DNA from: an uncultured cyanobacterium
GTDB taxonomy: Bacteria > Cyanobacteriota > Cyanobacteriia > Pseudanabaenales > Pseudanabaenaceae
Assembly: GCA_963703315.1 (NCBI GenBank)
Contig: OY969811.1
Span: 2,688,001-2,752,000 of the forward strand
Length of the DNA: 64,000 nucleotides
Reading direction: 5' to 3'
Shown piece after piece: positions 2,650 to 59,031 of this stretch. Below the pieces are notes generated by a model that worked only from the letters and a program-made list of their open reading frames with translations, was not told where the DNA came from and made no database searches. A program made the translations under genes and the position numbers. The first letter of the stretch is position 1, and the number at the start of each line of letters is the position of its first letter.

Positions 2650-5223
2650 TTACTCCTTACATAGTGGCAGATTAGAACGATTAGAATTTTGGGCTGTGCG
2701 TGTTGGCAACGTAGGCAAAGATGCCGTGATCGTCAAAAGTGGTTTCTTTGTCCTTGTCGGTTCGCAGTCTTTCACTTGACTAGCATTTGCCTGTAAGTCA
2801 GCCGTTCGAGCAGCTTGAATTGCTGAAGAATTATTCACTGTTGTATTATTCGCAATCTGAGTTGTTGATGGATTATTCGCAGTCAAGGTTCCAGTTCCGC
2901 CGTTATTACTACCTAGATTCAAATTAGAACTAAAGGACTGGTCAGAAACTAACACAAAAACATTGGGGGGAATCGAAGAGACACCTTGAGAAATAGCACC
3001 ATTTGTGCCACTTGTACCTGCGGCGATCGCCTGTGGATAAACTGAAAAGGTCGTGTCTTGGAGAATGGTGATAGAAATAATTGGGATGCCACTTCCTGCG
3101 ATCGTGCGCGGAGCCGCATCCCCCGGTAAAGTAAGCTGAACACTACGGACAGGTATTGACGTAAATGTTCCAGCAGGATCGGTTGTAAAGGCTGCATAGG
3201 CAATCAAACTAGTAGGATTCTGTTGACCGTTGTTCACAAAACCTGTTGCATCGCCAACATTAACAAAATTAGCATTGAAAGATAAAGGATTAATCGCAGT
3301 AAATCTTTGAGCGGTAATTGTAATCTTGCCATCATTACTCGCATTGTTAGCAGTGCCAGCTTGAATGAAACCATCAAGCAGAATGGAACCATTATTGGCT
3401 CTTAGCTCTACATTAGAACCTATAGCGGAAATTGATTTAATGGAACCAGTGGAAATATTACCATTGGTACTGACGATAGAGACATTGCTTGCTTCGATTG
3501 CAGGAGTGAAAAAATTATTTCCCTGTGAAGCGATCGCAATGTTACCCGTAGCAGTTAGGCTAACTAACGGGTCACCACCATTATTGCCAAGCCTACCAGC
3601 AATGTTCATGTTTCCCGCCGTAAAACTAATCGCACCATTATTTGTGATAACACTCACTCCAGAAGCAACAGTCAAGGTATTTCCCGCCGTAACTGTCAGC
3701 CCCACACCATTATTATTGAAGAAAACACTGTTATTGAAGGTGATATTGTTCGATGCTACAAGCGTCACATTGGCAAGTGCATTTGCAATTGTGGCAGGAT
3801 CGATCGTAAAAGTATTGGTAATATCGGCTCCATTAGATACATTTAGCAATGTTGCTCCACCTCCATTTGCCACAATAATGTCAAATGGATCGAGCAGCCA
3901 ATTGCCTGCGTTACCATTAACAGCCGAAGCATCAACGGAAGCATTTTGGACGTTGAGATGATTTTTGCCAGAGGTTTCGACAAAGCCTCCATTACCGCCA
4001 TTCATGCCACCACGCACGGAGATGTTGCCACTAAAACTAGTTTTGTCATTAGCCCAAGCAATCACCTTACCTCCATCTCCTGTTTGCAGGGCATCAGCTT
4101 GAATAGTAGAAGCATTGTCGATAAAAGTAATTTGGGCGTTGGGAACAATCCCTTTACCCAAATAATCACCACCAATCAATACAGTGCCACCACCGATCGC
4201 CCCTGAAGCATTGAGATTGCCTCCAACTAAGCCAACGCGATCGCCTAAAACATTAATCTCTCCACCTTTGCCAGTGGCGCTAGATACATTGATCGTTCCT
4301 GAAGCGATCGCTGTTCCTGCAACATTAGGAATGGAACTATTCGCCACTAGCACATTGCCTGAGTTATCCACATTTAAGCCTGTCATGCTCTTAAGGGTTG
4401 CGGAACCAGTCAGCAAAGTAGGCAAATCTGTAACCAAAATGGGCGATTGCGCTAATTCATTCTGAGAGGCAATGGGAAGTTCTAAACTCAGCAAACTTCC
4501 TTCAGGTGTAATTTTGACATACTTCCCATTCGGTACTGCGGCGATCGTCACTTTACCTGCGGGTGAAGAGATTGTGCCTGTATTGATGACAAGACCACCG
4601 ACGAGAGTAATACTTTGACCTGTTGTTGTTGTCAAATTACCTGCATTAGCGATCGCTGCTACTGGTTGTTCACTCGAAGTAGAACTAGCAAAGCCAAAAG
4701 CTTGAGGAGTGCCTGTTAAATTGTTGACATCATTAATCCCTGTATGTACACCAAACCAGCCATTACCGACCTGAATTCCATTGGCAGTCGTTGCCGTAAA
4801 AGCCGCAGGAACATTCAAACTCGCATTTGCACCAAAAATAATACCAGCAGGATTTAACAAATAGAGATTAGAATTACCACCTGTAACCTGAATTAATCCA
4901 TTAATTATCGATGGATTACCACCACTCACCCGCGCCAGAATATTCTGAATGCTGGGATTGGACATAAAGTTCGCAATCTGTCCTTGAGTCAAGCCGAACT
5001 GCTGAAAACTGTGAAATAGATTTGCACCTGCTTGTGTACCACCAGAAATATTGAATTGCTGGGGATTATCAGCAGAATTGCCAACGGTAGTACCAAGTTC
5101 GTTGCTGGCTGGAACAACCTGAGCCAGTGCTAGTCCCGCACGCAAAGACTGTGCGCAGAGCAGTCCGACAAGTGCTGAAACAAGGCTGAGAATGGCTTTG
5201 TTGGTAACAGTAACTCGACGCAT
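2650..5223 (-). CDS. Filamentous hemagglutinin-like TpsA protein (TPS N-terminal domain)
   Basis: NLFHSFQQFGL and LLNPAGIIFG secretion-domain motifs, GGFVETSGK and WLLDP; start set at ATG 5223 after a GGAG RBS. Confidence 0.88.
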   Translation of the reverse strand: MRRVTVTNKAILSLVSALVGLLCAQSLRAGLALAQVVPASNELGTTVGNSADNPQQFNISGGTQAGANLFHSFQQFGLTQGQIANFMSNPSIQNILARVSGGNPSIINGLIQVTGGNSNLYLLNPAGIIFGANASLNVPAAFTATTANGIQVGNGWFGVHTGINDVNNLTGTPQAFGFASSTSSEQPVAAIANAGNLTTTTGQSITLVGGLVINTGTISSPAGKVTIAAVPNGKYVKITPEGSLLSLELPIASQNELAQSPILVTDLPTLLTGSATLKSMTGLNVDNSGNVLVANSSIPNVAGTAIASGTINVSSATGKGGEINVLGDRVGLVGGNLNASGAIGGGTVLIGGDYLGKGIVPNAQITFIDNASTIQADALQTGDGGKVIAWANDKTSFSGNISVRGGMNGGNGGFVETSGKNHLNVQNASVDASAVNGNAGNWLLDPFDIIVANGGGATLLNVSNGADITNTFTIDPATIANALANVTLVASNNITFNNSVFFNNNGVGLTVTAGNTLTVASGVSVITNNGAISFTAGNMNIAGRLGNNGGDPLVSLTATGNIAIASQGNNFFTPAIEASNVSIVSTNGNISTGSIKSISAIGSNVELRANNGSILLDGFIQAGTANNASNDGKITITAQRFTAINPLSFNANFVNVGDATGFVNNGQQNPTSLIAYAAFTTDPAGTFTSIPVRSVQLTLPGDAAPRTIAGSGIPIISITILQDTTFSVYPQAIAAGTSGTNGAISQGVSSIPPNVFVLVSDQSFSSNLNLGSNNGGTGTLTANNPSTTQIANNTTVNNSSAIQAARTADLQANASQVKDCEPTRTKKPLLTITASLPTLPTRTAQNSNRSNLPLCKE

Positions 5224-5340: not shown

Positions 5341-8300
5341 CTACTCGCGATTTTTGACTTCTAGTTTGATTACAGGGGATTCGTTTTGGGGTAAGAGTAG
5401 GATCGCGCGATCGCACTCATAACCCCTTCTCAAATTTGGGTCATAACTACGACTGAAGCCAGATTCATAAATACATTCTACCTTTTGCCATTCCCTTTCT
5501 AAACGAGTCAGGGTGTCAGCAGTTAAAGTTAGAGATGTTGTGGTTGTAGTTGTAGGTGTAACTACTACTGGCGCGGCTGGGGGCGCACAACTACTATTCA
5601 AACAAATTAAACCCAGAGTACTATCATTTAATTCGTGGTTTAGCCCGCTTTCCACAACATTGTATTGAGCTAAAGTCAAATTCTGCCCCGCCACATTATT
5701 AAATTGAGCCGCCGAAGCATCAATGCGTTGATTGTCCAGCGCATTATTGCTTAGGGCAATAAATCTACTGGTTTGTCCTGAGAAAGACGTATTGTTGATG
5801 GTTAATCCTGTTAAAGCACTACCAGAATCTTGTATAGATATACCAATATTGCCCCCAGTAATCGTATTATTGCTACCAATTGTCGCCGTAGCACCATTTG
5901 CCATCACTGTACCGCCAATCACTTGCAATCCTACTGAATTATTACTCAGCGTAGAATTTTGGATGTTGAGGGTGAGTTGACGATTGGCTAAGGTGGAATT
6001 ATATTGCGTTTGAACGCCTGCTCTAGTAGAATTCTGCACGGTTACACCATTAACATTTAAAGTGCTTCGACCAGTTCCTGCATCGCCAAAGTTAGGGTCA
6101 AGATTATAGAGGGAAATCCCATACTGATTATTACTCAGCGTGCCGCCAGTAATTTGGGCTGTTCCAGATGTGGTAATTTTCCAAGCTTGAATTCCCGATC
6201 TCGAATTACTGATATTATTATTGTTAACATTAACTGAAGTAGTCCCAGTTACCGAACTAAGCATGATCCCCGTATTCGCATTAGGCGAAGTACCTGCGTT
6301 GGTCTTGATTGCATTTACAAACGTATCACCTGGAACTGACCAAGAAGTATAATCAGAAGCAGAAAGATTATTATTCGCAATCGTGTAGGTAGCGTTATTA
6401 GCAGTGACGGGGTTATGCCAAATACCAAAGAAATAGGATTCAATGGTGTTATTGCTAATATTCGTCCGCGTGCCAAGGGTAGTTGAACTCTGAGGTTGTA
6501 TTTGCACCCCAATTAAGGCACGAGTAATGTAGTTATTGGTAACATCGGCATAGGCGTTCCTTAATAGGTACACTCCGCGTCCGCCGTCAGGAGTATTGCC
6601 TGCTGACATATTATCAAAACGATTATTAGTAATTACATTGCCATCCATTGTCGTAGCAGCGGACGAAAACAGCAGCACCCCAGAACGATTGGTATTAGCA
6701 ATGATATTGTTTTTAACGGTCAAGTTTTGAATAGGGGTGTAGCTTGTCCCATCTGTTCCATTGGCTATCCCTCTAGCCGCATTTACATCTATTCCATTTA
6801 AACTACGTCCGCCAGCTAAAGCAGTATTATCCCCATCAAGTTTAAAACCGTCAATTGTGACATTATTTGCCCTGACCGTAATAATATTGCCATCGGTAAT
6901 ACTATTTGCGGCTGGCACAATGATTGCTTCTGCCCCGCGACTGGTGGCGCTAGAATTACCAGCAGAAACTCCCGCAAAGGGACCATTTAAAGTGACATTA
7001 CTGATAGTATTAGGAATTATTAAATTTTCTTGATAGGTTCCCGCTGCCACATTTACAGTAGTGCCGCCGTTAACTGTGCCAATAGTATCAATGGCATTTT
7101 GAATTGTATTCGCAGGCGGCGCAGCATTAGTATTCACAGAGTTTAGATTGAGAACTAGATTGCTACCTGCTCCCGTTAAACTAATAGTTGAGCCACCAGA
7201 ACGACTAATATAGCGTCCAGTCAGAGTTAGGGTGCGTCCAGCAGTAGCAGAACTAACGCTAGAATTTAAAAAGATATCGCCATTACCACCAGCCCCCCCA
7301 GAAGTCGTAATGGAGACATTGCCAGTTGTTAAATTTGTGAGGATTGTAGCGACTGTTAGAACTGCTGGACTAGCAGTGGTATTGAAATTTGGCGCACCAG
7401 CAATGTTAGAGTCAGCAGTAGTATTGATTGTCAGGTCGCTAGGATCGAGGAGCCAAGTACCATCTTGACCATTGGGAGCTAACGTATTGATTTGGCTACC
7501 ATTAACATCTAAGTTGATCTTTCCAGAAGTTTCTACAAAGCCGCCATCACCACTTTGGGTTCCCCCTCTAGCAAAAATATTGCCGTAGAAACGAGTAGTA
7601 TTATCTGCCCACAAAATTACTTTACCGCCATTGCCATTAGTTAAGGCCTCGGCTTGTATAACGGTATCTTGACTGCCAAAGGTAAACTCGGCATTGGGTA
7701 CGCTACCTTTGCCTTGATAGTCGCCCCCCACCAGCACCGTACCGCCCCCGATCGCCCCTGAAGCATTGAGGTTTGCCGAAATTAGACCAACGCGATCGCC
7801 TAAAACATTAATCTCACCGCCTTTACCAGTGGCGCTAGACACATTGATCGTTCCTGAAGCGATCGCTGTTCCTGCAACATTAGGAATGGAACTATTCGCC
7901 ACTAGTACATTTCCTGAGCTATCCACATTTAAGCCTGTCATATTTTGAAGGGATGCGGAACCAGTCAGCAAAGTAGGCAAATCTGTAACCAAAATCGGCG
8001 ACTGCGCTAATTCATTCTGGGAGGCTATGGGAAGTTCTAAACTTAAGAGACTTCCTTCAGGCGTAATTTTGACATACTTCCCATTTGGTACGGCGGCGAT
8101 TGTCACTTTGCCTGCGGGTGTAGCGATCGTGCCTGTATTGATGACAAGACCACCGACGAGAGTAATACTTTGACCTGTTGTTGTTGTCAAATTACCTGCA
8201 TTAGCGATCGCTGCTACTGGTTGCTCACTCGAAGTAGAACTAGCAAAGCCAAAAGCTTGAGGAGTACCTGTTAAATTGTTGACATCATTAATCCCTGTAT

Positions 8301-26781: not shown

Positions 26782-26899
26782 ATAAAAATGGTGCAAAGCG
26801 CCATTTTTATCCATTTGGGAATGGTGTTTTATGTTAGTGTCAGGAATTATTCGTGTTTACGATGATCTTGATGTAGATACTGTCTTGAGTACCAAAAAG

Positions 26900-27886
26900 T
26901 CAAGAGGGAATTTGAACAAAATTTGGGTCGAAAGAACGCTGAGACTTGAGAACGCCAAAGACCTGTCGTAACAGCTTGTGCATGACAGCCCCAATGACAG
27001 ACATTTTGGACTTACCCTTAGCCGTAAGGCGAGCGCAGAAAGCAGCAATCGGCAAATTATAACGACGGGCAACAATCGCAGGCATAAACAAAGCTTTACG
27101 CAAACGCGAATTACCAATTTTAGATAAACGTGGCTTACCATGAATCGAAGAACCAGATGAGAACTCACGGGGAGTTAAACCCGCAAAAGCTGCCAGTTGA
27201 TCAGCAGTATCAAAGGCAGAAATATCCCGAATTTCCGCCAGTAATATAGTTGCGGTCAGTTCAGCAATACCAGGAATAGAAGTCAACAAATCCCGTTGAG
27301 ATTTCAAATGAGGGTGTTGATCAAAGTGCTGACGGATCAATTTTTTGGTCATCTCAATTTGCTCTTTGAGAAAATCAATGTGAGCATTAATTGCCTCAAC
27401 CAAAATTGGATCAGCCGTAGCAAGACGATTCTGCTCTTGCTGCTGCATAGCAGTTAAGCTATCTAAACGATGCACCAATGCTTGTAGTTGCTCAATTTCT
27501 AATGCTGGTGGTGTCCAAAGAGCAGGTTTTAAGGCTGCACAAAATCTAGCAATGACTTTAGCATCAGCACGGTCAGTCTTTGTACGACTTAACTCACTCT
27601 TGCCAAAGGCTTTGGGACGGGATGGATTAACAATACTTACTTTGTATCCTGCCTCTACTAAGAATCTAGCTAACCCATTGCCGTAAGTGCTGGTAGCTTC
27701 CATACAACTATGCAAGTTTGTCACATTTTGAAGGTTTAGCCATTCTTGTAATTCAGCAAATCCTTCAGGATTGTTGGCAAATACTTTGCTCTTGATTTTG
27801 GCGTTGCCTTGGATTAGAGCAACATCAAATTTGGCTTTGCTGATATCTATTCCTAAAACATCATATACTTCATTGTTATTGTTCAT
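26900..27886 (-). CDS. IS110 DEDD recombinase/transposase
   Basis: GIDISK, MEAT, KTDRADA, SIPGI, GL.P....SGSS motifs. Confidence 0.95.
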   Translation of the reverse strand: MNNNNEVYDVLGIDISKAKFDVALIQGNAKIKSKVFANNPEGFAELQEWLNLQNVTNLHSCMEATSTYGNGLARFLVEAGYKVSIVNPSRPKAFGKSELSRTKTDRADAKVIARFCAALKPALWTPPALEIEQLQALVHRLDSLTAMQQQEQNRLATADPILVEAINAHIDFLKEQIEMTKKLIRQHFDQHPHLKSQRDLLTSIPGIAELTATILLAEIRDISAFDTADQLAAFAGLTPREFSSGSSIHGKPRLSKIGNSRLRKALFMPAIVARRYNLPIAAFCARLTAKGKSKMSVIGAVMHKLLRQVFGVLKSQRSFDPNFVQIPS

Positions 27887-27926
27887 TGGGGGGCAGTCCT
27901 CTTGCTAGATTTGTCCATCAAGCAAT

Positions 27927-28120
27927 CAGTGGTATTGAACTATCCTTGTGAATGCAGGTTTACCCGTTGGGCGACCTCTGATACTGTCCAGTCTTTACTT
28001 GTTTCCACTGTTTAAGCAGAGACGACTCTATCTACAAAACGGGCTTGGTGTCCCTAGGGGCAGATCGAGTTTATCTCTGCTTTTGCTTTTTCGGATTGTA
28101 GTAAAGATTTTATCCTTTAC
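27927..28120 (-). ncRNA. Predicted bridge RNA, IS110 copy 1
   Basis: Reverse complement of 28331-28524 with one substitution (28066); ends approximate. Confidence 0.75.
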
Positions 28121-28139
28121 TTTTCCTCCTAGATACAAG

Positions 28140-28311
28140 GGGCAGAGCATTCCCACAGAAATTCATGGATTTTGAGATTGTTTTAATTTGGGAATGCTCT
28201 GCCCTAAACCCGCAACGCAGGGACAATTTATCGATGAAAGCGAAGAGGGTAGAGCATTTGCGTTTCGAGATGATGGATGAGTATCAAAATCTTGGCGCAA
28301 ATGCTCTACCC
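28140..28311. repeat. REP/REPIN-like doublet targeted at both outer ends by IS110
   Basis: Two inverted pairs GGGCAGAGCATTCCC/GGGAATGCTCTGCCC and GGGTAGAGCATTTGCG/CGCAAATGCTCTACCC; removing the ISs restores GTAG...CTAC termini. Confidence 0.8.
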
Positions 28312-28330
28312 CTTGTATCTAGGAGGAAAA

Positions 28331-28524
28331 GTAAAGGATAAAATCTTTACTACAATCCGAAAAAGCAAAAGCAGAGATAAACTCAATCTGCCCCTAGGGA
28401 CACCAAGCCCGTTTTGTAGATAGAGTCGTCTCTGCTTAAACAGTGGAAACAAGTAAAGACTGGACAGTATCAGAGGTCGCCCAACGGGTAAACCTGCATT
28501 CACAAGGATAGTTCAATACCACTG
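28331..28524 (+). ncRNA. Predicted bridge RNA, IS110 copy 2
   Basis: 5' hairpin 28331-50; target-binding loop with TCTGCCCCT (28387-95) and TGTAG (28415-19); donor-binding loop with ACAGTATC (28464-71) and ACAAG (28502-06); ends approximate. Confidence 0.8.
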
Positions 28525-28563
28525 ATTGCTTGATGGACAAATCTAGCAAGAGGACTGCCCCCA

Positions 28564-29550
28564 ATGAACAATAACAATGAAGTATATGATGTTTTAGGAA
28601 TAGATATCAGCAAAGCCAAATTTGATGTTGCTCTAATCCAAGGCAACGCCAAAATCAAGAGCAAAGTATTTGCCAACAATCCTGAAGGATTTGCTGAATT
28701 ACAAGAATGGCTAAACCTTCAAAATGTGACAAACTTGCATAGTTGTATGGAAGCTACCAGCACTTACGGCAATGGGTTAGCTAGATTCTTAGTAGAGGCA
28801 GGATACAAAGTAAGTATTGTTAATCCATCCCGTCCCAAAGCCTTTGGCAAGAGTGAGTTAAGTCGTACAAAGACTGACCGTGCTGATGCTAAAGTCATTG
28901 CTAGATTTTGTGCAGCCTTAAAACCTGCTCTTTGGACACCACCAGCATTAGAAATTGAGCAACTACAAGCATTGGTGCATCGTTTAGATAGCTTAACTGC
29001 TATGCAGCAGCAAGAGCAGAATCGTCTTGCTACGGCTGATCCAATTTTGGTTGAGGCAATTAATGCTCACATTGATTTTCTCAAAGAGCAAATTGAGATG
29101 ACCAAAAAATTGATCCGTCAGCACTTTGATCAACACCCTCATTTGAAATCTCAACGGGATTTGTTGACTTCTATTCCTGGTATTGCTGAACTGACCGCAA
29201 CTATATTACTGGCGGAAATTCGGGATATTTCTGCCTTTGATACTGCTGATCAACTGGCAGCTTTTGCGGGTTTAACTCCCCGTGAGTTCTCATCTGGTTC
29301 TTCGATTCATGGTAAGCCACGTTTATCTAAAATTGGTAATTCGCGTTTGCGTAAAGCTTTGTTTATGCCTGCGATTGTTGCCCGTCGTTATAATTTGCCG
29401 ATTGCTGCTTTCTGCGCTCGCCTTACGGCTAAGGGTAAGTCCAAAATGTCTGTCATTGGGGCTGTCATGCACAAGCTGTTACGACAGGTCTTTGGCGTTC
29501 TCAAGTCTCAGCGTTCTTTCGACCCAAATTTTGTTCAAATTCCCTCTTGA
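28564..29550 (+). CDS. IS110 DEDD recombinase/transposase
   Basis: Protein identical to copy 1. Confidence 0.95.
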   Translation: MNNNNEVYDVLGIDISKAKFDVALIQGNAKIKSKVFANNPEGFAELQEWLNLQNVTNLHSCMEATSTYGNGLARFLVEAGYKVSIVNPSRPKAFGKSELSRTKTDRADAKVIARFCAALKPALWTPPALEIEQLQALVHRLDSLTAMQQQEQNRLATADPILVEAINAHIDFLKEQIEMTKKLIRQHFDQHPHLKSQRDLLTSIPGIAELTATILLAEIRDISAFDTADQLAAFAGLTPREFSSGSSIHGKPRLSKIGNSRLRKALFMPAIVARRYNLPIAAFCARLTAKGKSKMSVIGAVMHKLLRQVFGVLKSQRSFDPNFVQIPS

Positions 29551-29632
29551 CTTTTTGGTACTCAAGACAGTATCTACAAGTTCGTTGTTGTAAATCGTTA
29601 AGAGTGCTTTGCGCCGCCTTTATTTCAGAATT

Positions 29633-40160: not shown

Positions 40161-40392
40161 TAATGTGAGTTCGGGTTAAGAAATAGGGTATATAGCATTT
40201 TTCAAGCAAGCGAGGTATAGAGAATTGGTTCACCGCCTTTGGCGGTAAACCAATTCTCTATACCAGATGCTAAAGCGCTATGTTAGTAAATATAAATAAT
40301 GATGGCGTGTAGCGCCATCAATTTTGTAATGAAGCAGATGATTGAGATACACTTGTAGACTGTTATTGATTAAAAATAATAAGCAAAGCTTT

Positions 40393-43706: not shown

Positions 43707-43717
43707 GTATCGTTGAA

Positions 43718-43816
43718 GCGATCGCCTAAAAATCACTCACAGTAATAGCGATCGCCTTTAGAAGATAGATTGTTGATGCGATCGCCTAGAAATCACGACT
43801 CACAGTAATAGCGATC
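43718..43816 (+). repeat. HIP1-anchored module A-B-A
   Basis: GCGATCGCCTAAAAATCACTCACAGTAATA, GCGATCGCCTTTAGAAGATAGATTGTTGAT, GCGATCGCCTAGAAATCACGACTCACAGTAATA. Confidence 0.9.
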
Positions 43817-43871
43817 AAACAATCCGTATTATTTCACTTCGCAAAGCTTTACCTTAACAAACAAAAAAGTT

Positions 43872-44396
43872 ATGAATATTATCCCTCTATTCAATGATAT
43901 AGGTGAAGAAGGCGCTGAGTTTTACTGCCTAGCGTATGCTCCCGTTTGGTATCACCAGACCAAGAAGCCTGCACTTCCATCGGCGTTAGGAATTTACTTT
44001 TGCTCACATAAAGATTTCACGCAATTTAGTCAACACAGCTTCGCAGAGGATGGTCATCGCCTCTCGTATTCGCGAGGCGATGATAAGCGCGATACGCTAG
44101 AGTTTGTATTCTTGTCCGTACTCTTAGAAAGTTCCGTTCACCCTGCCATGTGGAGGTTGTTTCCTCGTGCGAAGATTCCGCACAGTTTTCAGTCAGATAA
44201 GTACGAGCAGGCACGTCGTCAGCTTTGCTGTTTATTGTTTCACTTCCGAAGTCAGGAGATGGTGGCACGACTTACATCTGATTTGCCTAAGCAGCCATTG
44301 ATGACTTGTGACGAGTCCGCCAGACGAGTAGCTTTCGGCGACTTCACAGAAGAGGATAAAGAACTTGAGCAAGCTATCATAGAGGAGAATAATTGA
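43872..44396 (+). CDS. Hypothetical protein (accessory)
   Basis: 174 aa ORF between repeat modules. Confidence 0.55.
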   Translation: MNIIPLFNDIGEEGAEFYCLAYAPVWYHQTKKPALPSALGIYFCSHKDFTQFSQHSFAEDGHRLSYSRGDDKRDTLEFVFLSVLLESSVHPAMWRLFPRAKIPHSFQSDKYEQARRQLCCLLFHFRSQEMVARLTSDLPKQPLMTCDESARRVAFGDFTEEDKELEQAIIEENN

Positions 44397-44397
44397 T

Positions 44398-44437
44398 GCG
44401 ATCGCCTATAAATCACGGCTCACAGTAATAGCGATCG
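44398..44437 (+). repeat. HIP1-anchored module A
   Basis: GCGATCGCCTATAAATCACGGCTCACAGTAATAGCGATCG. Confidence 0.85.
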
Positions 44438-44498
44438 TCTTCACCAACCCTTTTAACAGATAGAGAATTGAGGCGATCGCTCAGAAAATTGATATTCG

Positions 44499-45216
44499 CT
44501 AATGAGGATCTTCTCTTGTTTGCAACTTCAACATTTCAGACTGAACATTCATCCCAATAACTAAAGCATCGCTCAGCAGAGAACTATACTGATTAGCTTG
44601 ATTTTGCACTTCTAAAGATTTTAAAGCTATCAAATTTTGCTCAATATTATTGAAAAGATCACGATGGCTACTTAAAAAACGACGATGCTCTCGGAGGATC
44701 TTTTCGGTTGTCAAGCCACAAATGAGGCTATCTCTAGTTAACTCAAGTGCCTGTAGGACATCCTCACGATGATTAAGATTTGCTGATTGATTACCGACAG
44801 ACTTTAAGCGATCGCACAGATCCATCGCTGCAATTACTTGATTATATTTATCGACCTCATCTAACAGATGGGACAAACCAGAACATATTTTTCGCTCTAA
44901 TCCAAGCAACAAGATTCCAACCTGCAAGCAGAATTAATACTAGCAGAAATACAAAAATGGCAAACCCAATCTGCTCTTGACGAGTATTTATGGATTTGCC
45001 AAGAGATTGAAATAGGAGAATGCTAATTGGCAAACTAAAAATCGCAATCAAAAATAAAGCGATCGCCTCACTCACCAAAAAAGGAACTAAGTATTTAGGA
45101 TTATTTAATAGAGAAATTCTATATACGCTGCCTATAAATAAATAGGTGATTTCCCTACCTGTGACCCTTGCTAGATCCTGTTCAGTAATCTGCAAATTCC
45201 TAATATCTGTTTGCAT
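44499..45216 (-). pseudogene. Membrane hypothetical gene split by a frameshift
   Basis: ORFs 44857-45216 and 44499-44927 join across an A5 run (44888-92): WIRAK/ICSGLSHLLDEV. Confidence 0.65.
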
Positions 45217-45237
45217 AATTGTTAGGCAATCTCAGAT

Positions 45238-45954
45238 TTATGTAAAAAACAAGCTTTTAATTGTATTCCATATTGCTAGATAAAAATTGCCTTCACGGGG
45301 ACGAAAAATATCAAATTTAGAACCAAAGGAACCGAAAAATGGTCTCAATGTCCAAGCCATCTGACTACCAACAAAAGCATAGAGTCCCAGCCAGAACTTG
45401 AGTATGGAGATACGAATTTTACGGTTTTTATCAATGGCTGTATCGTCAATAGCTAAGTCTTTATCTGCGATAATAGTTTCAGTTTTTGGTAGTAAAACCT
45501 GATAGAGAAAGTAAACTCCAATAACTCCTGTCAGAGTAAATATGGCAACATTTAACAAAAGGAAAAATGAATAATTGTCGGCTGTAATTAAGAAAAATAG
45601 AGTGACTGGTGCAAAACCAAATAGTAACGTACTAGTAATTGTTACTGCACAAAGCAAAATTGCCGCATACTGGCTAAGTGTAGTTTTTGAGCCGAAATAA
45701 ATATTAAAGAAATAGAGTGCTGGTAAACAAATCGCTAATGTGATTAGAAACAGGAATGGTAGCTTTGCGGCTGAAGAGACGATCTGCATCCAAGAGCTAA
45801 TCGCACCAATTAAACCACCATAAATTGCTAAAAATATAGAGCTACATATTAATAAGCCCACTATTTTGGTGTTAATTTTAACTCCATCATAAATTTCTTT
45901 GATGAACTGATCGCGATCGCTAAGTAAGGCAAGAAGAACCGAGAAAAATGGCAT
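45238..45954 (-). CDS. Conserved multi-TM membrane protein
   Basis: K.P.LFL.TL.ICLPALY and FVGSQ.AW.LRPF motifs. Confidence 0.75.
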   Translation of the reverse strand: MPFFSVLLALLSDRDQFIKEIYDGVKINTKIVGLLICSSIFLAIYGGLIGAISSWMQIVSSAAKLPFLFLITLAICLPALYFFNIYFGSKTTLSQYAAILLCAVTITSTLLFGFAPVTLFFLITADNYSFFLLLNVAIFTLTGVIGVYFLYQVLLPKTETIIADKDLAIDDTAIDKNRKIRISILKFWLGLYAFVGSQMAWTLRPFFGSFGSKFDIFRPREGNFYLAIWNTIKSLFFT

Positions 45955-46355
45955 ATGGATTTTAGATAAATTTCAAGATGGGAATGCTGGTAACTCACCT
46001 TACGCGGAACGTTTTAACCTCATAGCATTTCCTAATTAGGGTTTAGGGATTTGCCACTTTCTGGGTTTTATTCCCCCTCTCCTGCAAGGAGAGGATTTAG
46101 GGGAGAGGCTTACAAGGTTATCTGCGTAACATCGGGTAGTAATTTAGTGCAAAAACAGTTTACCTATGGAGTTTTGTAAAATTGTAATAGCAATTTACAT
46201 AATCTTTGCTCCACCGATTTAGACTAAGTAAATAGGCACTGTGTTCCTATATATTTTTTGTGGTGGAACTCATCTAAAGCTATTGACCACATTACAAGGC
46301 GATCGCTATTTGTTAAAAGTAAAGCTGCGATGCCCCCTCAACACCTAAAACATCA

Positions 46356-46453
46356 CGATCGCCTAAAAATCACTCACAGTAATAGCGATCGCCTTTAGAA
46401 GATAGATTGTTGATGCGATCGCCTAGAAATCACGAATCACAGTAATAGCGATC
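46356..46453 (+). repeat. HIP1-anchored module A-B-A
   Basis: Nearly identical to 43718-43816. Confidence 0.9.
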
Positions 46454-46649
46454 AAAATACATTTCTCTTCTGAGATTGTAGACCTTGTAGGGTTTGTTAA
46501 TGCAATGTAACGCACCCAAAATTTTATTTTTACACTTATTTAGCTGCTTTATATGACAGTTTATGGAATATTTATCTTTATACAAGTATTTATCCTAATA
46601 ATCTGCAAGATAATACATAGTTAGCAGTTCTCTATTAGAAATCAGAAGG

Positions 46650-47153
46650 ATGGATATGTCTAAAAAATGGAAGGGTCGGGAACAGCCAAATCTTGATCAT
46701 TTGATGTCACTTTTCTCGGATGACACCATTTCTGCATTCATTACTGGGCATCTAGTTATTGAATCTCTTCTTGTACAAATGATCGATCTAAAACTAGAAC
46801 ATCCTGATGAATTTGATACATTTAGTCTTAACTTCCCAGCAAAAACTAATCTGTGTAAGGCATTAGGATTAATTGATTCTGATATGACAAACTTTCTTCT
46901 TGAGATGAACACAATCAGAAATCGTTTTGCTCACAGGCTTGGATACAGCTTTTCCTTTGATGATGCGTTTAGCTTTGCTCAAGCTGCTGCCAAAGGGGGG
47001 ATAGACTTTTCAGATGATTCCATATACATGGATAAGGAGAATTCTGAAGAATGGTATGGCATCAAAGGAATTATTCAGGAAGTTTTTCAAAATACTGCTC
47101 AAGACCTCTCATTCATCATGGAGGAAAATGGTGGTGAATTTCAGTTTGGGTGA
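46650..47153 (+). CDS. Hypothetical protein in an integron-type gene cassette
   Basis: Preceded by GTTAGCAGTT (46620) and followed by its complement AACTGCTAAC (47168) starting an attC site. Confidence 0.75.
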   Translation: MDMSKKWKGREQPNLDHLMSLFSDDTISAFITGHLVIESLLVQMIDLKLEHPDEFDTFSLNFPAKTNLCKALGLIDSDMTNFLLEMNTIRNRFAHRLGYSFSFDDAFSFAQAAAKGGIDFSDDSIYMDKENSEEWYGIKGIIQEVFQNTAQDLSFIMEENGGEFQFG

Positions 47154-47170
47154 TCGAAATACTACTCAAC

Positions 47171-47246
47171 TGCTAACAATGGTGGTGCAGAAGATTGTTG
47201 GCAAAGTTGTAAAGTTTTTGGCAACCGCTGACCACAAACGTTCAGC
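47171..47246 (+). other. attC-like recombination site
   Basis: R'' TGCTAAC, 5 bp, L'' TGGTGCAG ... L' CTGACCA, 5 bp, R' GTTCAGC; extrahelical G. Confidence 0.78.
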
Positions 47247-47288
47247 TTCAGCGCACAGCTTTAACGCAAATTAAGTAAACTTTGACGT

Positions 47289-48059
47289 ATGAAACCTCAT
47301 GTATCTTTACTCGACAGAATTGAAATATTAAAGACGCAAAATCCAATTCAGGGAGCTTCGTATTACTGCGTCACATTGCTTGGCACTAAAGAGGGGAAAA
47401 TAAACCGATACTGCCAATCCGAGGTGTGCGGATACACTGATACAAAACCCCGCAGAGAAATTCGAGCAGGATGCTTGGTTGAGCCAACTAAGATGCGTGA
47501 TTTGTTTCAAGTGATTAAAGAACCGTCAGTTCTCGTGAATACATACAGTGACTTGTACGTATTTCTTCTGATTGGCGGTCATGGGATAATTGAGAAAAGT
47601 CTAGGTGAAAAGTACTTCGGTGATTTGTTGGCTGCGGAGGCGACAGTATTCTCCCATACAAAAGGACTTTTGCGGGTTCGTAGTTCGCCAAAAGCAATAA
47701 TTCAACACGCGCCAAGCAAGAAAACCCGAATGATAATCTTGAAACGTGATAATTATCGCTGTAAGGTATGTGGACGTTCACCAGAAAACCACGTTGATAT
47801 TGAATTGCACGTACATCATATACATCCTTGGGGAGAAGGCGGAGTAACTGAAGAAGATAACCTTATTACCCTTTGTAATACCTGTCATGACGGGCTTGAT
47901 CCCCATTTTGAGACAGACTTATTCCCTCTCATTGGTATCCAGCCTTATGTGAATATTATAAAAGCAGACCCTAACTACGTCGTTGGTGTTGTGAATTACC
48001 GTAAAGTATCCGTGAAAGCATATAAAACACTCGCCGAAAAAATGCCGCCACGCTCGTAA
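47289..48059 (+). CDS. HNH endonuclease domain protein
   Basis: RDNYRCKVCG...LHVHHI.P...GG.....NLITLC..CH. Confidence 0.85.
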   Translation: MKPHVSLLDRIEILKTQNPIQGASYYCVTLLGTKEGKINRYCQSEVCGYTDTKPRREIRAGCLVEPTKMRDLFQVIKEPSVLVNTYSDLYVFLLIGGHGIIEKSLGEKYFGDLLAAEATVFSHTKGLLRVRSSPKAIIQHAPSKKTRMIILKRDNYRCKVCGRSPENHVDIELHVHHIHPWGEGGVTEEDNLITLCNTCHDGLDPHFETDLFPLIGIQPYVNIIKADPNYVVGVVNYRKVSVKAYKTLAEKMPPRS

Positions 48060-48192
48060 ACAGTTCGATCGCCGATCTTGTAGTTAATGAAGTGCAACGC
48101 ACCTTATTTTTGTTCGTATTGACACTGACTTGAACACAGTTACAATTTTTTAGCTAGACTACTGAGTAATAACTTTCAATCTAGGCGCAGCC

Positions 48193-48405
48193 ATGCTAGA
48201 CACATCAACACTTGAGCAACGCTTGATAACCCTTGAACAAGTAGTTTTCGATCTTCAAAATAAATTTGAAAGTAAGCCTAGCTCCGACAATTGGCTTGAT
48301 AGACTCATAGGTTCCATCTCTGATGACTCAGCTTTTCTTGAAGCTCTAGAATATGGACGTGCATTTCGGCTGTCTGATAAACCTATTGACGACACTGACA
48401 AATAA
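48193..48405 (+). CDS. Putative VapB-like antitoxin
   Basis: 70 aa, directly upstream of a PIN toxin remnant. Confidence 0.6.
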   Translation: MLDTSTLEQRLITLEQVVFDLQNKFESKPSSDNWLDRLIGSISDDSAFLEALEYGRAFRLSDKPIDDTDK

Positions 48406-48407
48406 TC

Positions 48408-48560
48408 GTGAAATAGATGCGAAGTCAAAAAGTTCGTGTGTCTACAATGGACTTGAGAATTGCCGCGATCGCCATTTCTAACAACTTGGTATTACTTACC
48501 CGAAATACTGGAGACTTCAGTAAAGTTCCGAGTTTAGTAACCGAAGATTGGACAGTGTAG
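48408..48560 (+). pseudogene. VapC/PIN toxin remnant with internal deletion
   Basis: GTG AAA TAG then MRSQKVRVSTMDLRIAAIAISNNLVLLTRNTGDFSKVPSLVTEDWTV (PIN C-terminus only). Confidence 0.72.
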
Positions 48561-48666
48561 CGCTGAAGGGCTTCCTTACAGTTAGCAAATAGATAGATCA
48601 TTGAGGCGATCGTAAGATATCTCAAAGCTATAATGTGAGGTAGCAAAAGATCTTCAGGTTAGGGGT

Positions 48667-49017
48667 ATGACTACAGTATCAATCTTGCCAATATCTAGTG
48701 TTAGCGGTGAAAAATCCTATCGGGCGATCGCAGGAGATAAGCAGTGGGTTGGTAAAACTGCGGGGCAAGCTCTAGATGGATTAACTGCTCAGTTAGGTGA
48801 AGCTGATTTCAGTGCGCTGATCGTTATCAACAGTTTTCATCCAGATCTATTTTTTAGCGCCGATCAACAAAAACGGTTATCGGAGTTAATGAATTTATGG
48901 CGAGTAGCACGCGATCGGGGAGAAACATTACTACTGGAACAACAAGCAGAGCTAGATAATTTAGTTGATGCTGAACTAAGGGCAGCAACTGCACGAACAA
49001 CCGCCTTAATGCAGTAA
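48667..49017 (+). CDS. Hypothetical protein paired with an HNH gene
   Basis: 116 aa; GKTAGQALD, QQ.RL.ELM..WR. Confidence 0.65.
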   Translation: MTTVSILPISSVSGEKSYRAIAGDKQWVGKTAGQALDGLTAQLGEADFSALIVINSFHPDLFFSADQQKRLSELMNLWRVARDRGETLLLEQQAELDNLVDAELRAATARTTALMQ

Positions 49018-49025
49018 CTAAGTAT

Positions 49026-49241
49026 ATGAATCCCTATTACAGTGCGATCGCAGAACGTGCTAATCATCGTTGTGAATACTGCCATGCCCCAGAATTGGTT
49101 TTTAACTTCCCTTTTGAGGTTGAACATATCATCCCTCTCTCCCAGCAAGGGACAAATGACGAGTCGAATCTAGCTCTTGCCTGTCGATCCTGCAATCTTC
49201 GTAAAGGCACTCGTATTAGCGGCATTGATGCGATCGCCTAA
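49026..49241 (+). pseudogene. HNH endonuclease, probably 3'-truncated at a HIP1 module
   Basis: RA..RCEYC...EVEHIIP...NLALAC..CN.RKG; stop codon lies inside the repeat. Confidence 0.7.
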
Positions 49242-49298
49242 AACTCATGCCTTACAGTAATAGCGATCGCCTTGAGGAGATAGATTGTTAATGCGATT
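49230..49298 (+). repeat. HIP1-anchored module A-B
   Basis: GCGATCGCCTAAAACTCATGCCTTACAGTAATA, GCGATCGCCTTGAGGAGATAGATTGTTAAT. Confidence 0.85.
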
Positions 49299-49356
49299 AC
49301 CAAAGTAATTAAGCCATAATTGCATTACAAACCTAATTTATCTGGCTCGAATGTAT

Positions 49357-49881
49357 ATGAAAAATGAGAAGATCAAAGCAATACAAAATATCTTTAGTTC
49401 TAGACTCGACACGTTGAGCCATCTCTTAACAGTAGCAGAGAGCCATTTCGGAACCGATGTAGAGCCTATATTGCAGCGCCGTATAGCTCCCGATATGTTT
49501 CCCTTCGGTACACAAATTGTATTTACTTGCAATCAGCCCCGCAACTTTGCCTTGTGGTGCTTAGGACAGGCGGCGAATAACTTACCTCCCGACGTAGCAT
49601 CCCTAGATGAGGCGCGTACTCATATTTCATCTACAAAGGAACTGTTAGCAAGTATCAATGTTAGCGATACTATGCTTGCAGAGATCAAGCGGATTGAACT
49701 TGGAGAAGGTCTATACCTCGAACTATCTGGACTCTCATACGTGGATGATTTTCTGATGCCAAACTTTTACTTCCATTTGACCACAGCCTACGACATCCTG
49801 CGTATGGAAGGAGTACCCATAGGTAAGCACGATTTCATGATGCATTTGATACCTTTTGTAAAGCATCAAGGTAATTCATAA
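49357..49881 (+). CDS. DUF1993 (DinB-like) family protein
   Basis: R.APDMFP, PNFYFH.TTAY.ILR..GV.IGK.DF. Confidence 0.85.
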   Translation: MKNEKIKAIQNIFSSRLDTLSHLLTVAESHFGTDVEPILQRRIAPDMFPFGTQIVFTCNQPRNFALWCLGQAANNLPPDVASLDEARTHISSTKELLASINVSDTMLAEIKRIELGEGLYLELSGLSYVDDFLMPNFYFHLTTAYDILRMEGVPIGKHDFMMHLIPFVKHQGNS

Positions 49882-49894
49882 CATGGAGTAAAAA

Positions 49895-50377
49895 ATGTCA
49901 TTATCTGAACCAATTAGCATTCAGCAGCTTTTCGCCAATGACTTGGCACTTATGGAAGAATTATTAACTGTCTTTGGTGAAGCTTTTGAAGAAGTTGATA
50001 CCTATAGCTCATCTCGTCCAAATGGTGCTTATCTCCAGCGTTTACTAGGTCGCGATTATTTCATTGCACTTGCAGCGTTAAAAAATGGATCGGTGGTTGG
50101 AGGTCTAGCCGCATACGAACTCCAGAAGTTTGAGCAAGAACGGAGTGAAATTTATATTTATGATCTAGCTGTTGCCGCCGCACATCGACGGCAAGGCATT
50201 GCCACGGCATTAATTCAAGAATTAAAGAAGATTGCTGTAGCGCGAGGAGCTTACGTTGTTTTTGTGCAGGCTGACATTGGAGATGACCCTGCGATCGCAC
50301 TTTATACAAAGCTTGGTGTGCGTGAAGATGTGCTTCATTTTGACATTGCTGTTGACGATAATAGCGATCGCCTTTAG
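49895..50377 (+). CDS. AAC(3)-I family aminoglycoside N-acetyltransferase (GNAT)
   Basis: [16 protein letters not shown]...[11 protein letters not shown] and VQAD.GDDPA.ALYTKLG.RE.V.HFDI. Confidence 0.85.
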
Positions 50378-50401
50378 GAGATAGATTGTTGAGGCGATCG
50401 C
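50364..50401 (+). repeat. HIP1-anchored module B
   Basis: GCGATCGCCTTTAGGAGATAGATTGTTGAGGCGATCGC; supplies the stop codon of the GNAT gene. Confidence 0.85.
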
Positions 50402-50513
50402 GCTTGAATTAAAGTAGAATTTGCGGCAAATTTTTCCTCAATCAAATAATTAAACTGCAAGTGCTTTACAACTCCAAGCAATGTGTCTCTACGACCATTA
50501 AAATTCGCCTGTT

Positions 50514-50957
50514 TCAAATCTTCTGCTCACCTCGTTCAAGTTTGTTTTTCTGCAATTGATTTGGTTGTCTAGACCGATTTTTGCCAGCAATACGGAGAAG
50601 ACGAAGAAATTTTGGACATTCAAAATGGTTTGGCGCTTTGCAAACTGCCGCGTGACGAAGCCCATCACGCATTGAGGTCAGTTCCTTTATTTTCTTATCC
50701 AACTCCTCTGCTTTAGCTGAAAGCAGTGCAACATTAATTTCAACACCTTCAGGGGTAAACATTTCCGCGATCTCATCCAGAGAGAAACCAGCATTTCGTC
50801 CCAAAGCAATTAAAGCCAGCCGATCTATAACATCATCACTGAATTGACGACGTAGACCACTTCGACCATTGGACTGAATCAGCCCCTTCTCTTCGTAAAA
50901 GCGTAGCGTTGAGGCAGGCAACCCTGATGCCTTTGCAACTTCAGATATATCCATCAT
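50514..50957 (-). CDS. MerR-family transcriptional regulator
   Basis: ISEVAK.SG...STLRFYEEKGLI HTH; C-terminal C.AP.H..C. Confidence 0.9.
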   Translation of the reverse strand: MMDISEVAKASGLPASTLRFYEEKGLIQSNGRSGLRRQFSDDVIDRLALIALGRNAGFSLDEIAEMFTPEGVEINVALLSAKAEELDKKIKELTSMRDGLRHAAVCKAPNHFECPKFLRLLRIAGKNRSRQPNQLQKNKLERGEQKI

Positions 50958-50976
50958 GTCACTTTGCAATTAACAC

Positions 50977-51007
50977 TTGACTTCAAGTTAACTTGAACTT
51001 GTATTGT
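50977..51007 (+). promoter_or_regulatory. MerR-type promoter and operator
   Basis: TTGACT-N19-TATTGT with dyad TTCAAGTTAACTTGAA in the spacer. Confidence 0.85.
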
Positions 51008-51039
51008 AGCCTCATACAAGATTTTATGAGCTAAAAACT

Positions 51040-51849
51040 ATGCTAAATATTGAATGGATATTGTTATACATCGCGTTGGGCGGCTTTGTTGGTTTTATGG
51101 GAGGCTTGCTCGGTGTTGGTGGTGGTGGAATCTTAGTTCCTCTCCTAGCATCAATTCTTGTTTACCAAGGTATCGGTGGAGATGAAGTAGTCCATTTGTC
51201 CTTGGGAACATCATTGATGTGCATGATCATTTCTTCCATCGCAAGTACTCGCGCACATTCATCTCGAAAAGCTGTAGTGTGGAAAGTCGTTGGCGGAATG
51301 GCTCCTGGAATTATTCTCGGCGCTCTCCTAACTACCCAAGTTGCGGCAACCCTCAAATCAGCTTACATTGCGCTTTTTATGGCACTTTTCATGGTGCTTG
51401 TAGCAGTGCAAATGTTTGTTAATTGGAAACCGAAACCTAGCTTGAAGCCAATTACATTTCGCGGATTACTGACAGTTGGAGTTGCGATCGGCTCGGTATC
51501 AGCACTAGCCGCAGTGGGCGGCGGTTTTCTCACAGTTACCTACTTGAGCTATAAGAATATCGTCATGAAAAGAGCAGTTGGCACTTCAGCCGCAATTGGA
51601 CTTCCGATCGCTATTTCAGGAACGATTGGTTACATGATTAGCGGCTGGTCTAAGACATTGAGCGCTCCCTATACTATTGGATTCATTTACTTACCAGCAT
51701 TTTTGGCAATATCGATTGCCAGTTCTATTGCTGCTCCTTATGGCGCTCGCTGCTCACATCGTTTACCTGAGGCTTATTTAAAAAAGATATTTGCAGTTAT
51801 CTCACTCATCTTAAGCTTAACGATGCTACGCTCATTTGTTAAATTTTGA
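51040..51849 (+). CDS. TauE/SafE (TSUP) family exporter
   Basis: GLLGVGGGGILVP, GTSL, AVGTSAA; multiple TM segments. Confidence 0.88.
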   Translation: MLNIEWILLYIALGGFVGFMGGLLGVGGGGILVPLLASILVYQGIGGDEVVHLSLGTSLMCMIISSIASTRAHSSRKAVVWKVVGGMAPGIILGALLTTQVAATLKSAYIALFMALFMVLVAVQMFVNWKPKPSLKPITFRGLLTVGVAIGSVSALAAVGGGFLTVTYLSYKNIVMKRAVGTSAAIGLPIAISGTIGYMISGWSKTLSAPYTIGFIYLPAFLAISIASSIAAPYGARCSHRLPEAYLKKIFAVISLILSLTMLRSFVKF

Positions 51850-51863
51850 ACTAGAAGTATCGC

Positions 51864-52505
51864 CTAAATACTCAAATCACCAATATAAGACCCAATTTGC
51901 TTAAGTCCTTGCAAAACCTGAACACGTTCCATTGTGTTTTCGAGTAATCGATAAGTATGCGATCGCGTATATTGAGGGATATTTTGGTGGCGATCGCACT
52001 TCAAAAACAATACTTCTCTTCCATTTGTAACCATTCCATAGCAACTTGACTGTAAATTAGGAGCGCTCAACAAATAAGTAAGTGCTTGGGGAATTCCTGC
52101 CGTAACGTCTAACCTTGCAGGTTTTGATTCAATTACCAAAATCCAAAAGCTATCTTGGATTACCAAAATATCAATTCGACCTTGAACTGCCATAGCATTA
52201 GATTCATCCGCAACTTCGATATTAGTACTTACTTCTGCTTTTACCAAAAAAGGAAATTGATAGAAACCCGCCAAATCTAGCAATGGTGATATAACCACAA
52301 GCTTAACAATTTCTTCGAGGGGTGGTTCCTCTTGACTGAGATAGGTATAGTTGCGAGTGAGGCGATCTAGTCCTTGTAGTTCCGCCTCGGTTAGAGTCGG
52401 CGCATTATTTAACCATTCATCAAAAAAGCGATCGCTAGAGTTGAGTCTCAAGCCAAAGGTTTGACGGAGATTGCCAAGGGTAAGGCTACTAGCATTTGTA
52501 ATCAC
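51864..52505 (-). CDS. Type I restriction enzyme R N-terminal-like (PD-(D/E)XK) protein
   Basis: GRIDILV...IESK...Q..TY, GMVTNG; GTG start. Confidence 0.75.
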   Translation of the reverse strand: MITNASSLTLGNLRQTFGLRLNSSDRFFDEWLNNAPTLTEAELQGLDRLTRNYTYLSQEEPPLEEIVKLVVISPLLDLAGFYQFPFLVKAEVSTNIEVADESNAMAVQGRIDILVIQDSFWILVIESKPARLDVTAGIPQALTYLLSAPNLQSSCYGMVTNGREVLFLKCDRHQNIPQYTRSHTYRLLENTMERVQVLQGLKQIGSYIGDLSI

Positions 52506-52589
52506 GGTTAAATCCTTTAAGTAATTACATGAAGTTTAGAAGTCTAGGCATTTGATCTAGGCGCTAATACCTAATATACGATAAAAATT

Positions 52590-52630
52590 GCGATCGCCTA
52601 ATAATCACGACTCACAGTAATAGCGATCGC
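52590..52630 (+). repeat. HIP1-anchored module A
   Basis: GCGATCGCCTAATAATCACGACTCACAGTAATAGCGATCGC. Confidence 0.85.
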
Positions 52631-52722
52631 TTTATATTTGCTAAATGATGATTGAATGAAATATGAATAACCTAACCCCGCAGTCTTCTTTAACTCGATT
52701 AAATTTTTGTTAGCCTTTATCT

Positions 52723-53181: not shown

Positions 53182-53210
53182 GATACAGCGCTTTGCGCTA
53201 AATTAAAATA

Positions 53211-53261
53211 CAAAGAAATTTTTGAAAGCGCGGCAGAGCCGCGCTTTCAAAAATTTCTTTG
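53211..53261. repeat. Intergenic long-hairpin repeat (24-bp stem)
   Basis: Perfect inverted repeat around GCGCGGC-AGA-GCCGCGC. Confidence 0.8.
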
Positions 53262-53296
53262 GACTACTTCAAGCCTCAACAGCCTGTAGCTATATC

Positions 53297-54652: not shown

Positions 54653-54718
54653 CCAATCATCTCCACATTTAACTTCTTCGTATTTACAGCAGCGTTTCTC
54701 CACTCATTTCAACCACAA

Positions 54719-57614: not shown

Positions 57615-57628
57615 GTTTCAGAAATATA

Positions 57629-59018: not shown

Positions 59019-59031
59019 TTTAGGAATACAT

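What the first reader, a model, noticed from the sequence alone, without database searches (positions are those of the whole stretch)
28312..28563. IS110 bridge RNA whose guides match both insertion sites
Seen: the reconstructed targets are TCTGCCC-CT-ACAT (copy 1) and TCTACCC-CT-ACAA (copy 2), and the circle junction is ACAGTAT-CT-TGTAT. The non-coding left end has a 5' hairpin (28331-50). It then has a stem (28369-77/28429-37) enclosing TCTGCCCCT (28387-95, the left target) and TGTAG (28415-19, complement of CTACA). A further stem (28441-46/28519-24) encloses ACAGTATC (28464-71) and ACAAG (28502-06). Established: this is the IS621 bridge-RNA layout, and the donor matches the IS621 donor as I recall it. 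Inference: a naturally retargeted cyanobacterial bridge recombinase that tolerates one left-guide mismatch.
Basis: partly seen in the sequence, partly recalled or inferred. Interest (0 to 1): 0.8.

Follow-up and report, generated by a model that had tools for sequence, protein, structure and literature searches.

The report
Repeat-targeting RNA-guided jumping gene, cyanobacterium
A small jumping gene in a cyanobacterium carries its own guide RNA that steers it into the ends of the host's short hairpin repeats, as its well-studied E. coli relative does, and its close relatives show that guide changing letter by letter or being swapped between sister copies.

Summary
The element is an IS621-type IS110 bridge recombinase: 42% identical to IS621, same 14-bp donor, guides and conserved A/G nucleotides in IS621 register. 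The genome holds 7 near-identical copies. Six sit at the CTAC (GTAG) end of a REP hairpin family that also flanks the one RAYT gene found. Occupancy follows the guide: 5/10 perfect ends, 1/10 position-4 wobble ends, 0/45 other variants. The window's head-to-head pair fills both outer ends of one REP composite. The 'tolerated mismatch' is IS621's published rG:dT at position 4. The seventh copy has two left mismatches and interrupts a GmrSD-type gene. Across 59 sites in relatives, 13 left guides track their flanks (0/50,000 permutations) with the donor unchanged. Unexpected extras: one element has a sibling's guide on its own scaffold; some sit at a sibling's target; and three truncations break at the guide-coding DNA itself. 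Expression, circles and activity were not shown.

The parts
28312..29575 (+). IS110 element, copy 2 (1264 bp including both CT cores)
26875..28139 (-). IS110 element, copy 1 (1265 bp), head-to-head with copy 2
28312..28563 (+). non-coding left end encoding the predicted bridge RNA; CT core 28312-13, right donor half TGTAT 28314-18
28331..28350 (+). 5' stem-loop
   Evidence: 2 of 6 pairs with a change on both sides
28369..28437 (+). target-binding loop; outer stem with compensatory changes, inner hairpin 28397-28410
   Evidence: 5 of 8 outer-stem pairs with a change on both sides
28387..28395 (+). left target guide TCTGCCC-CT; the DNA here is itself a 10-of-11 match to the target
28385..28385 (+). 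equivalent of IS621's conserved G48: A in this copy only, G in the other six
28413..28421 (+). right target guide (GTAG 28416-19, extension TTT 28413-15) and handshake AT 28420-21
28441..28524 (+). donor-binding loop: left donor guide 28464-71, inner stems 28474-95, right donor guide 28498-99 plus 28502-06, handshake GA 28507-08
28564..29550 (+). IS110 recombinase, 328 aa (D14, E63, D105, D108, S244)
26900..27886 (-). identical recombinase of copy 1
29547..29575 (+). right end: -35-like TTGACT 29547-52, left donor half ACAGTAT 29567-73, CT core 29574-75
   Evidence: promoter role inferred
28140..28311 (.). 172-bp REP composite between the copies: two inverted doublets (28140-54/28190-204 and 28247-62/28296-311); both outer CTAC ends are occupied
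28305..28311 (+). left target half of copy 2, TCTACCC (position-4 wobble); right half ACAAG at 29576-80
28140..28146 (-). left target half of copy 1, TCTGCCC (perfect); right half at 26870-74 on the minus strand

Best explanation
An IS621-clade IS110 element. Shown in sequence: the left end encodes a two-loop RNA whose guides match the element's own RE-LE junction (ACAGTAT-CT-TGTAT) and the insertion sites (TCTGCCC-CT-AC, extendable to ACAAA). Inferred from IS621: the element circularises, the junction completes a promoter, and the RNA-bound recombinase (DEDD plus serine) recombines circle and target at the CT cores. The target is the CTAC end (the reverse strand of the GTAG tag) of a host REP family tied to a RAYT gene. 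The core and right guide read the constant GTAG tag, and the left guide picks which REP variant is used. Because one REP composite has two outward-facing CTAC ends, filling both gives the head-to-head pair in this window.
For: Recombinase: PF01548 + PF02371, NF033542 at 244.7 bits against a cut-off of 140; the only 2 PDB matches are ISCro4 and IS621; 137 of 325 aligned residues identical to IS621. Donor identical to IS621's. A covariance model built from 24 cyanobacterial left ends aligns to IS621's left end over all 218 positions, guides in register, E = 6.5e-5. 7 of 7 copies sit at CCC-CT-AC; 5 are perfect, 1 has the wobble, 1 has two left mismatches with a 7/7 right match. REP-type ends occupied: 5/10, 1/10 and 0/45, Fisher p = 4.7e-4. 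The one Y1_Tnp match in the genome passes NF047646 (85.7 against 80) and is flanked on both sides by these repeats. Relatives: guide positions 1-4 match the flank at 174 of 236 positions (shuffled mean 101, maximum 132 in 20,000); by guide class, 0 of 50,000 permutations reach the observed score; 23 of 23 right flanks start with AC; 43 of 55 left flanks have an inverted arm, against a shuffled mean of 5.5.
Against: No expression, circle or activity shown: 0 donor junctions in the genome, and no RE-to-LE joint in 4 of 4 runs laid, all of them contigs. Empty orthologous sites could not be found because gene order differs: hisB lay beside the ligase gene in 0 of 13 loci. 17 of 59 sites in relatives have two or more strict mismatches, and 2 have five or more. 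Relatives are not independent, so the permutation figures overstate. All 10 perfect 11-mers lie in REP ends, so guide pairing and hairpin recognition cannot be separated in this genome. The donor-loop outer stem is weakly supported.
Confidence: 0.92

Rival explanations
1. Guide pairing is necessary, but the REP hairpin upstream is a second, structural requirement (the dual match reported for ISPpu10).
For: 6 of 7 own sites and 43 of 55 sites in relatives have an inverted arm; the ISPpu10 preprint abstract reports this.
Against: The seventh own copy and 12 of 55 relatives lack such an arm. The arm distance varies (18-70 nt). Perfect 11-mers occur only in REPs in this genome, so the enrichment needs no structural explanation.
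Confidence: 0.3
2. The protein alone recognises REP ends, and the guide-like matches are conserved relics or coincidence.
For: All sites share CCC-CT-AC; many sites in relatives mismatch their own guide.
Against: Occupancy among near-identical REP variants follows the guide (0 of 45 others). Elements about 90% alike in the gene use different flanks that track their guides. Guide control is proven for IS621.
Confidence: 0.04
3. The head-to-head pair arose by a local duplication-inversion or is an assembly artefact, not two insertions.
For: Two of the four REP composites with two eligible ends are doubly filled (read).
Against: Each copy has its own precise CT junctions and different flanks. Within both pairs the copies differ at 28557, although that is a C run prone to error.
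Confidence: 0.05

Closest known systems
IS621 of Escherichia coli and its bridge RNA (PMC11208160, PMC11208158)
   Same: Identical 14-bp donor; CT core; guide, linker and handshake spacing; right guide GTAG; target at the CTAC end of a REP; rG:dT mismatch at target position 4; 42% protein identity.
   Different: Left guide TCTGCCC rather than ATCGGGC; cyanobacterial REP family; A at the 161-equivalent gives a full donor pair where IS621 has G:T; G63 is S; different stems and a longer left end.
ISCro4 / IS622 (PDB 9t56; 10.1101/2025.05.14.653916)
   Same: Best PDB match (E = 3.5e-76); IS621-clade bridge recombinase.
   Different: Enterobacterial; its guides were not compared here.
ISPpu9 and ISPpu10 of Pseudomonas putida
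   Same: Multi-copy IS110 elements inserted in conserved intergenic palindromic repeats (abstracts).
   Different: Sequence relationship not tested; the hairpin requirement shown for ISPpu10 is untested here.
GTAG REPs / REPtrons (PMC3733652)
   Same: GTAG-tagged palindromes in doublets flanking a RAYT gene; known in cyanobacteria.
   Different: Whether this repeat is that paper's GTAG-15 or GTAG-16 family was not determined: their sequences were not in the passages seen.

Membership tests
IS110 bridge recombinase, IS621 type | DEDD RuvC-like domain plus Tnp domain with catalytic serine | tested here: met
   D14/E63/D105/D108/S244 align to IS621 D11/E60/D102/D105/S241. D102 and S241 are; D11, E60 and D105 are recalled.
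IS110 bridge recombinase, IS621 type | CT core at both ends, no further target duplication | tested here: met
   7 of 7 copies
IS110 bridge recombinase, IS621 type | Long left end with a 5' stem-loop and two internal-loop modules | tested here: met
   donor-loop outer stem weakly supported
IS110 bridge recombinase, IS621 type | Target loop matches insertion sites and covaries with them | tested here: met
IS110 bridge recombinase, IS621 type | Donor loop matches the RE-LE junction | tested here: met
   28464-71 and 28498-506 against 29567-75 and 28312-18; donor as
IS110 bridge recombinase, IS621 type | Conserved flipped A (43, 67, 116, 150) and syn G (48, 72, 121, 155); handshake positions | tested here: met
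   A28380, A28406, A28457, A28491; G28411, G28462, G28496 (numbering); G48-equivalent is G in 6 of 7 copies, A in copy 2
IS110 bridge recombinase, IS621 type | Promoter completed across the circle junction | tested here: inconclusive
   TTGACT lies 18 nt before TATCT at the right end; the junction would supply a final T; not scanned or measured
IS110 bridge recombinase, IS621 type | Circular intermediate and expressed bridge RNA | tested here: inconclusive
   no junction in the genome or in 4 contig sets; contigs cannot show absence
IS110 bridge recombinase, IS621 type | Guide-dependent recombination activity | not testable with these tools
   needs a recombination assay
GTAG REP / RAYT system (the target) | GTAG-tagged palindromes in inverted doublets, dispersed in the genome | tested here: met
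GTAG REP / RAYT system (the target) | A RAYT gene flanked by the same repeats | tested here: met

The most novel reading that the evidence does not exclude
This cyanobacterial clade records how bridge RNAs retarget in nature. With the donor fixed and the right guide locked on the GTAG tag, the left guide walks by single substitutions among host REP variants (10 of 13 guides form one single-step network). It can be swapped between co-resident siblings (L097 has the L098 recombinase and scaffold but the L057 guide). Siblings sharing the donor can be delivered to each other's targets (L019 sits at L027's target). The DNA coding for the left guide is itself a near-target that the recombinase cuts, giving 84-bp stubs and nested left ends (L099, L079, L112).
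Probability: 0.45. Interest if true: 0.62.

Novelty: new member of a known kind. Interest (0 to 1): 0.42.

Why it matters
The element itself repeats IS621 biology in another phylum, so it is not a surprise. It shows that IS621-type elements in E. coli and in cyanobacteria share the donor and the GTAG-reading right guide and differ in the left guide. It offers a likely recently active, 42%-identity bridge recombinase native to cyanobacteria, a candidate editing tool. Its relatives are a ready natural series for testing how guides change, whether siblings cross-mobilise, and whether the guide-coding DNA is a self-target. The last point matters for the stability of any construct that carries its bridge RNA gene beside the donor.

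Tried and rejected
Rfam: no family reached its gathering score; 6 weak matches judged chance. Circle junction: none in the genome and none in runs X1, X2, X4, X5. RNA-run contigs cover part of the left end but cannot show transcription, so they were not used. Small-share runs were not used. Empty orthologous site: hisB was beside the ligase gene in 0 of 13 loci, and neighbours differ between genomes, so neither an empty site nor an IS-mediated inversion could be established. Phylum-wide pattern search: 2 of 401 genomes, the own one included; this only says the close clade was not found in the others searched. 7 of the 14 metagenome matches had no recognisable target loop. Counting guide changes on the tree gave 12 changes for 19 rows, with no control run, so it is uninformative. 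Local hopping as the cause of the paired copies: too few cases, and the paired copies differ at 28557. The seventh site as a donor half-match: rejected by inspection, since its left half does not match the donor in register. Earlier-findings look-ups by place and by sequence returned nothing.

Full report
Observation. The window holds two inverted copies of a 1.26-kb element, head-to-head around 172 bp, between convergent genes for imidazoleglycerol-phosphate dehydratase and an O-antigen-ligase/TPR protein. The left end folds better than 200 of 200 shuffles (z = -3.13). The single-sequence fold recovers the 5' hairpin and target loop but not the donor-loop outer stem. Rfam has no match at threshold.

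The protein. The 328-aa ORF matches PF01548 and PF02371 and NF033542. Its only 2 PDB matches are ISCro4 and IS621. It is identical to IS621 at 137 of 325 aligned residues and keeps the DEDD and serine positions (D11, E60 and D105 recalled). The closest named records are mostly Pseudanabaena, with Phormidium and Chamaesiphon. The left end was found in 18 of 48 same-genus genomes, the own one included, and the donor-loop motif in 2 of 401 drawn from the phylum.

The RNA. The junction ACAGTAT-CT-TGTAT is the IS621 donor as listed in the supplement of PMC11208160. With IS621 numbering, all four flipped A and three of the four syn G positions are present at the same spacing from the guides. The fourth, the G48-equivalent at 28385, is A only in the window's copy 2 and G in the other 6 copies and in all 4 runs laid; it is a private mutation or a sequencing error. 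The handshake AT (28420-21) fits donor positions 6-7, and G28507 fits C at target position 7 in 7 of 7 sites. On 24 aligned left ends, 37 pairs are 93.9% paired against 32-51% when slid; 9 pairs change on both sides, 5 of them in the target-loop outer stem. The structure came from this sequence and the rows are related, so these figures lean in its favour. A model built from them aligns to IS621's left end over its whole length with all four guides in register (E = 6.5e-5, rough).

All copies in the genome. There are 7, at 99.8-100% identity. Five sit at TCTGCCC-CT-AC, one at TCTACCC-CT-ACAAG and one at TATTCCC-CT-ACAAA. The position-4 G-guide/A-target pair is the rG:dT mismatch published for wild-type IS621. 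The two sites with left mismatches have the longest matches to the extended right guide TTTGTAG (6 and 7 of 7); with two cases this is only suggestive. The seventh copy interrupts a 598-codon frame whose N-terminal part matches GmrSD_N.

The target. Six of 7 sites are outer ends of a dispersed palindrome family ending in CTAC, the reverse strand of the GTAG tag of REPs. The single Y1_Tnp match in the genome (4 candidates scored) passes the RAYT model and is flanked on both sides by these composites, one of them carrying a copy of the element. Of 65 ends fitting my pattern for this family, 5 of 10 perfect, 1 of 10 wobble and 0 of 45 other variants are occupied (p = 4.7e-4; a few of the 45 may not be true REP ends); 22 inner arms have the left half but no CTAC, and no copy sits at one. 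The window's pair fills both outer ends of one composite, and a second such pair lies elsewhere in the genome.

Relatives. Of 72 rows with a target loop I dropped 10 duplicates and 7 without a left flank, and added 4 truncated elements, giving 59 sites in 20 genomes or contigs with 13 left guides. 23 match exactly, 19 have one mismatch and 17 have two or more; position 2 is often mismatched (21 of 59). Positions 1-4 match at 174 of 236 (shuffled maximum 132), and by guide class 0 of 50,000 permutations reach the observed score. Kinship inflates both figures. 23 of 23 right flanks begin with AC, and 43 of 55 left flanks have an inverted arm. The donor guides are nearly invariant.

Signs of how guides change. 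Ten of the 13 guides form one single-substitution network (no control run). Fourteen sites keep two or more mismatches after allowing wobble pairs. In 3 of them a co-resident sibling's guide fits with none left (L019, L075, L097), in 2 with one, 3 improve only partly, and 6 have no second guide known. L097 groups with L098 on the recombinase tree (100/99, zero branch lengths) and shares its scaffold, yet carries the guide of L057/L074: best read as a guide swap after insertion. L019 sits at the exact target of L027 from the same assembly, whose scaffold is quite different: best read as delivery in trans through the shared donor, which is known to work for IS621 in plasmids. Of 8 left ends I saw interrupted within contigs, 3 break at the guide's own CT (within one base): L099, where 84 bp of left end join directly to the usual right flank; L079; and L112, a second left end nested there, one base out of register and close to a contig end. 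The own element's guide DNA, TCTGCCC-CT-AG, matches the 11-mer target at 10 of 11. This was noticed after the fact, and microhomology deletion (3 shared bases) is not excluded.

What is not shown. No circle junction was found in the genome or in 4 contig sets, and transcription was not shown. Empty orthologous sites were not found because gene order differs.

Literature. PMC11208160: passages, section 9, and a search of 7 supplementary files (one picture PDF not searched, two files cut when stored). No row shown there was this element; other orthologues with GTCYGCCCC-type guides and CCCCTAC targets were shown, and a cyanobacterial IS621-clade protein is in its tree table. PMC11208158: abstract and sections 7, 8, 11. 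PMC13626964: passages. 10.64898/2026.08.31.748434: abstract and section 8. 10.64898/2026.03.19.712850: abstract. 10.1101/2025.05.14.653916, 10.64898/2026.08.14.744561, 10.1101/2025.10.25.684509 and PMC3733652: passages. ISPpu9: search listing only. Five searches listed no paper on a cyanobacterial bridge recombinase at REPs, on guide swaps between siblings, or on self-targeting of guide DNA. The library is partial and bioRxiv supplements are closed, so the ortholog screens of those preprints may include such elements.

Verdict. A real IS621-type bridge recombinase that targets REP ends: a new member of a known kind. The core claim is solid but expected. The natural record of guide change in its relatives is the part worth following up. 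Interest 0.42.

Noticed in passing
G000:C1:3868924-3870187 (L014): The seventh copy interrupts a 598-codon GmrSD_N-family (restriction-type) gene; it is the only copy outside a REP end.
   Followed up: partly
L001:1336-1815 (G000:C1 near 348,800-349,280): RAYT gene flanked by the REP composites on both sides, with one IS110 copy inserted in the upstream composite (a REPtron hit by its REP's parasite).
   Followed up: yes
G000:C1:3075044-3077747: A second head-to-head pair of the same element around a 175-bp REP composite.
   Followed up: partly
L099:298-400; L079; L112:413-531: Left ends that break, or carry a second left end, at the guide's own CT core.
   Followed up: partly
L097 compared with L098 and L057 (G044): Mosaic element: one sibling's recombinase and scaffold with another sibling's left guide.
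   Followed up: partly
window 11527, 12395, 13389, 24053, 32333, 39086, 55585, 61364, 63628: A second palindrome family (about 55 nt, central GCGGCGC...GCGCCGC), unrelated to the targeted REP.
   Followed up: no
window 43713-60081: Cluster of 35-55-nt repeats bounded by GCGATCGC sites, including a 101-nt pair at 43719 and 46356.
   Followed up: no
window 53-143, 40190-40254, 54724-54815: A third dispersed hairpin repeat.
   Followed up: no
window 4123-4422 and 7678-7977: 300-nt stretch shared at 85% between two neighbouring long ORFs.
   Followed up: no
L010, L062, L098, L102: In several relatives the match to the recombinase gene stops early or is displaced, suggesting other insertions in the gene.
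   Followed up: no
G000:C1 near 3,985,000 (IS-free 3976213-3976910): Tandem array of six REP doublets of the targeted family, none occupied and none with a perfect outer end.
   Followed up: no
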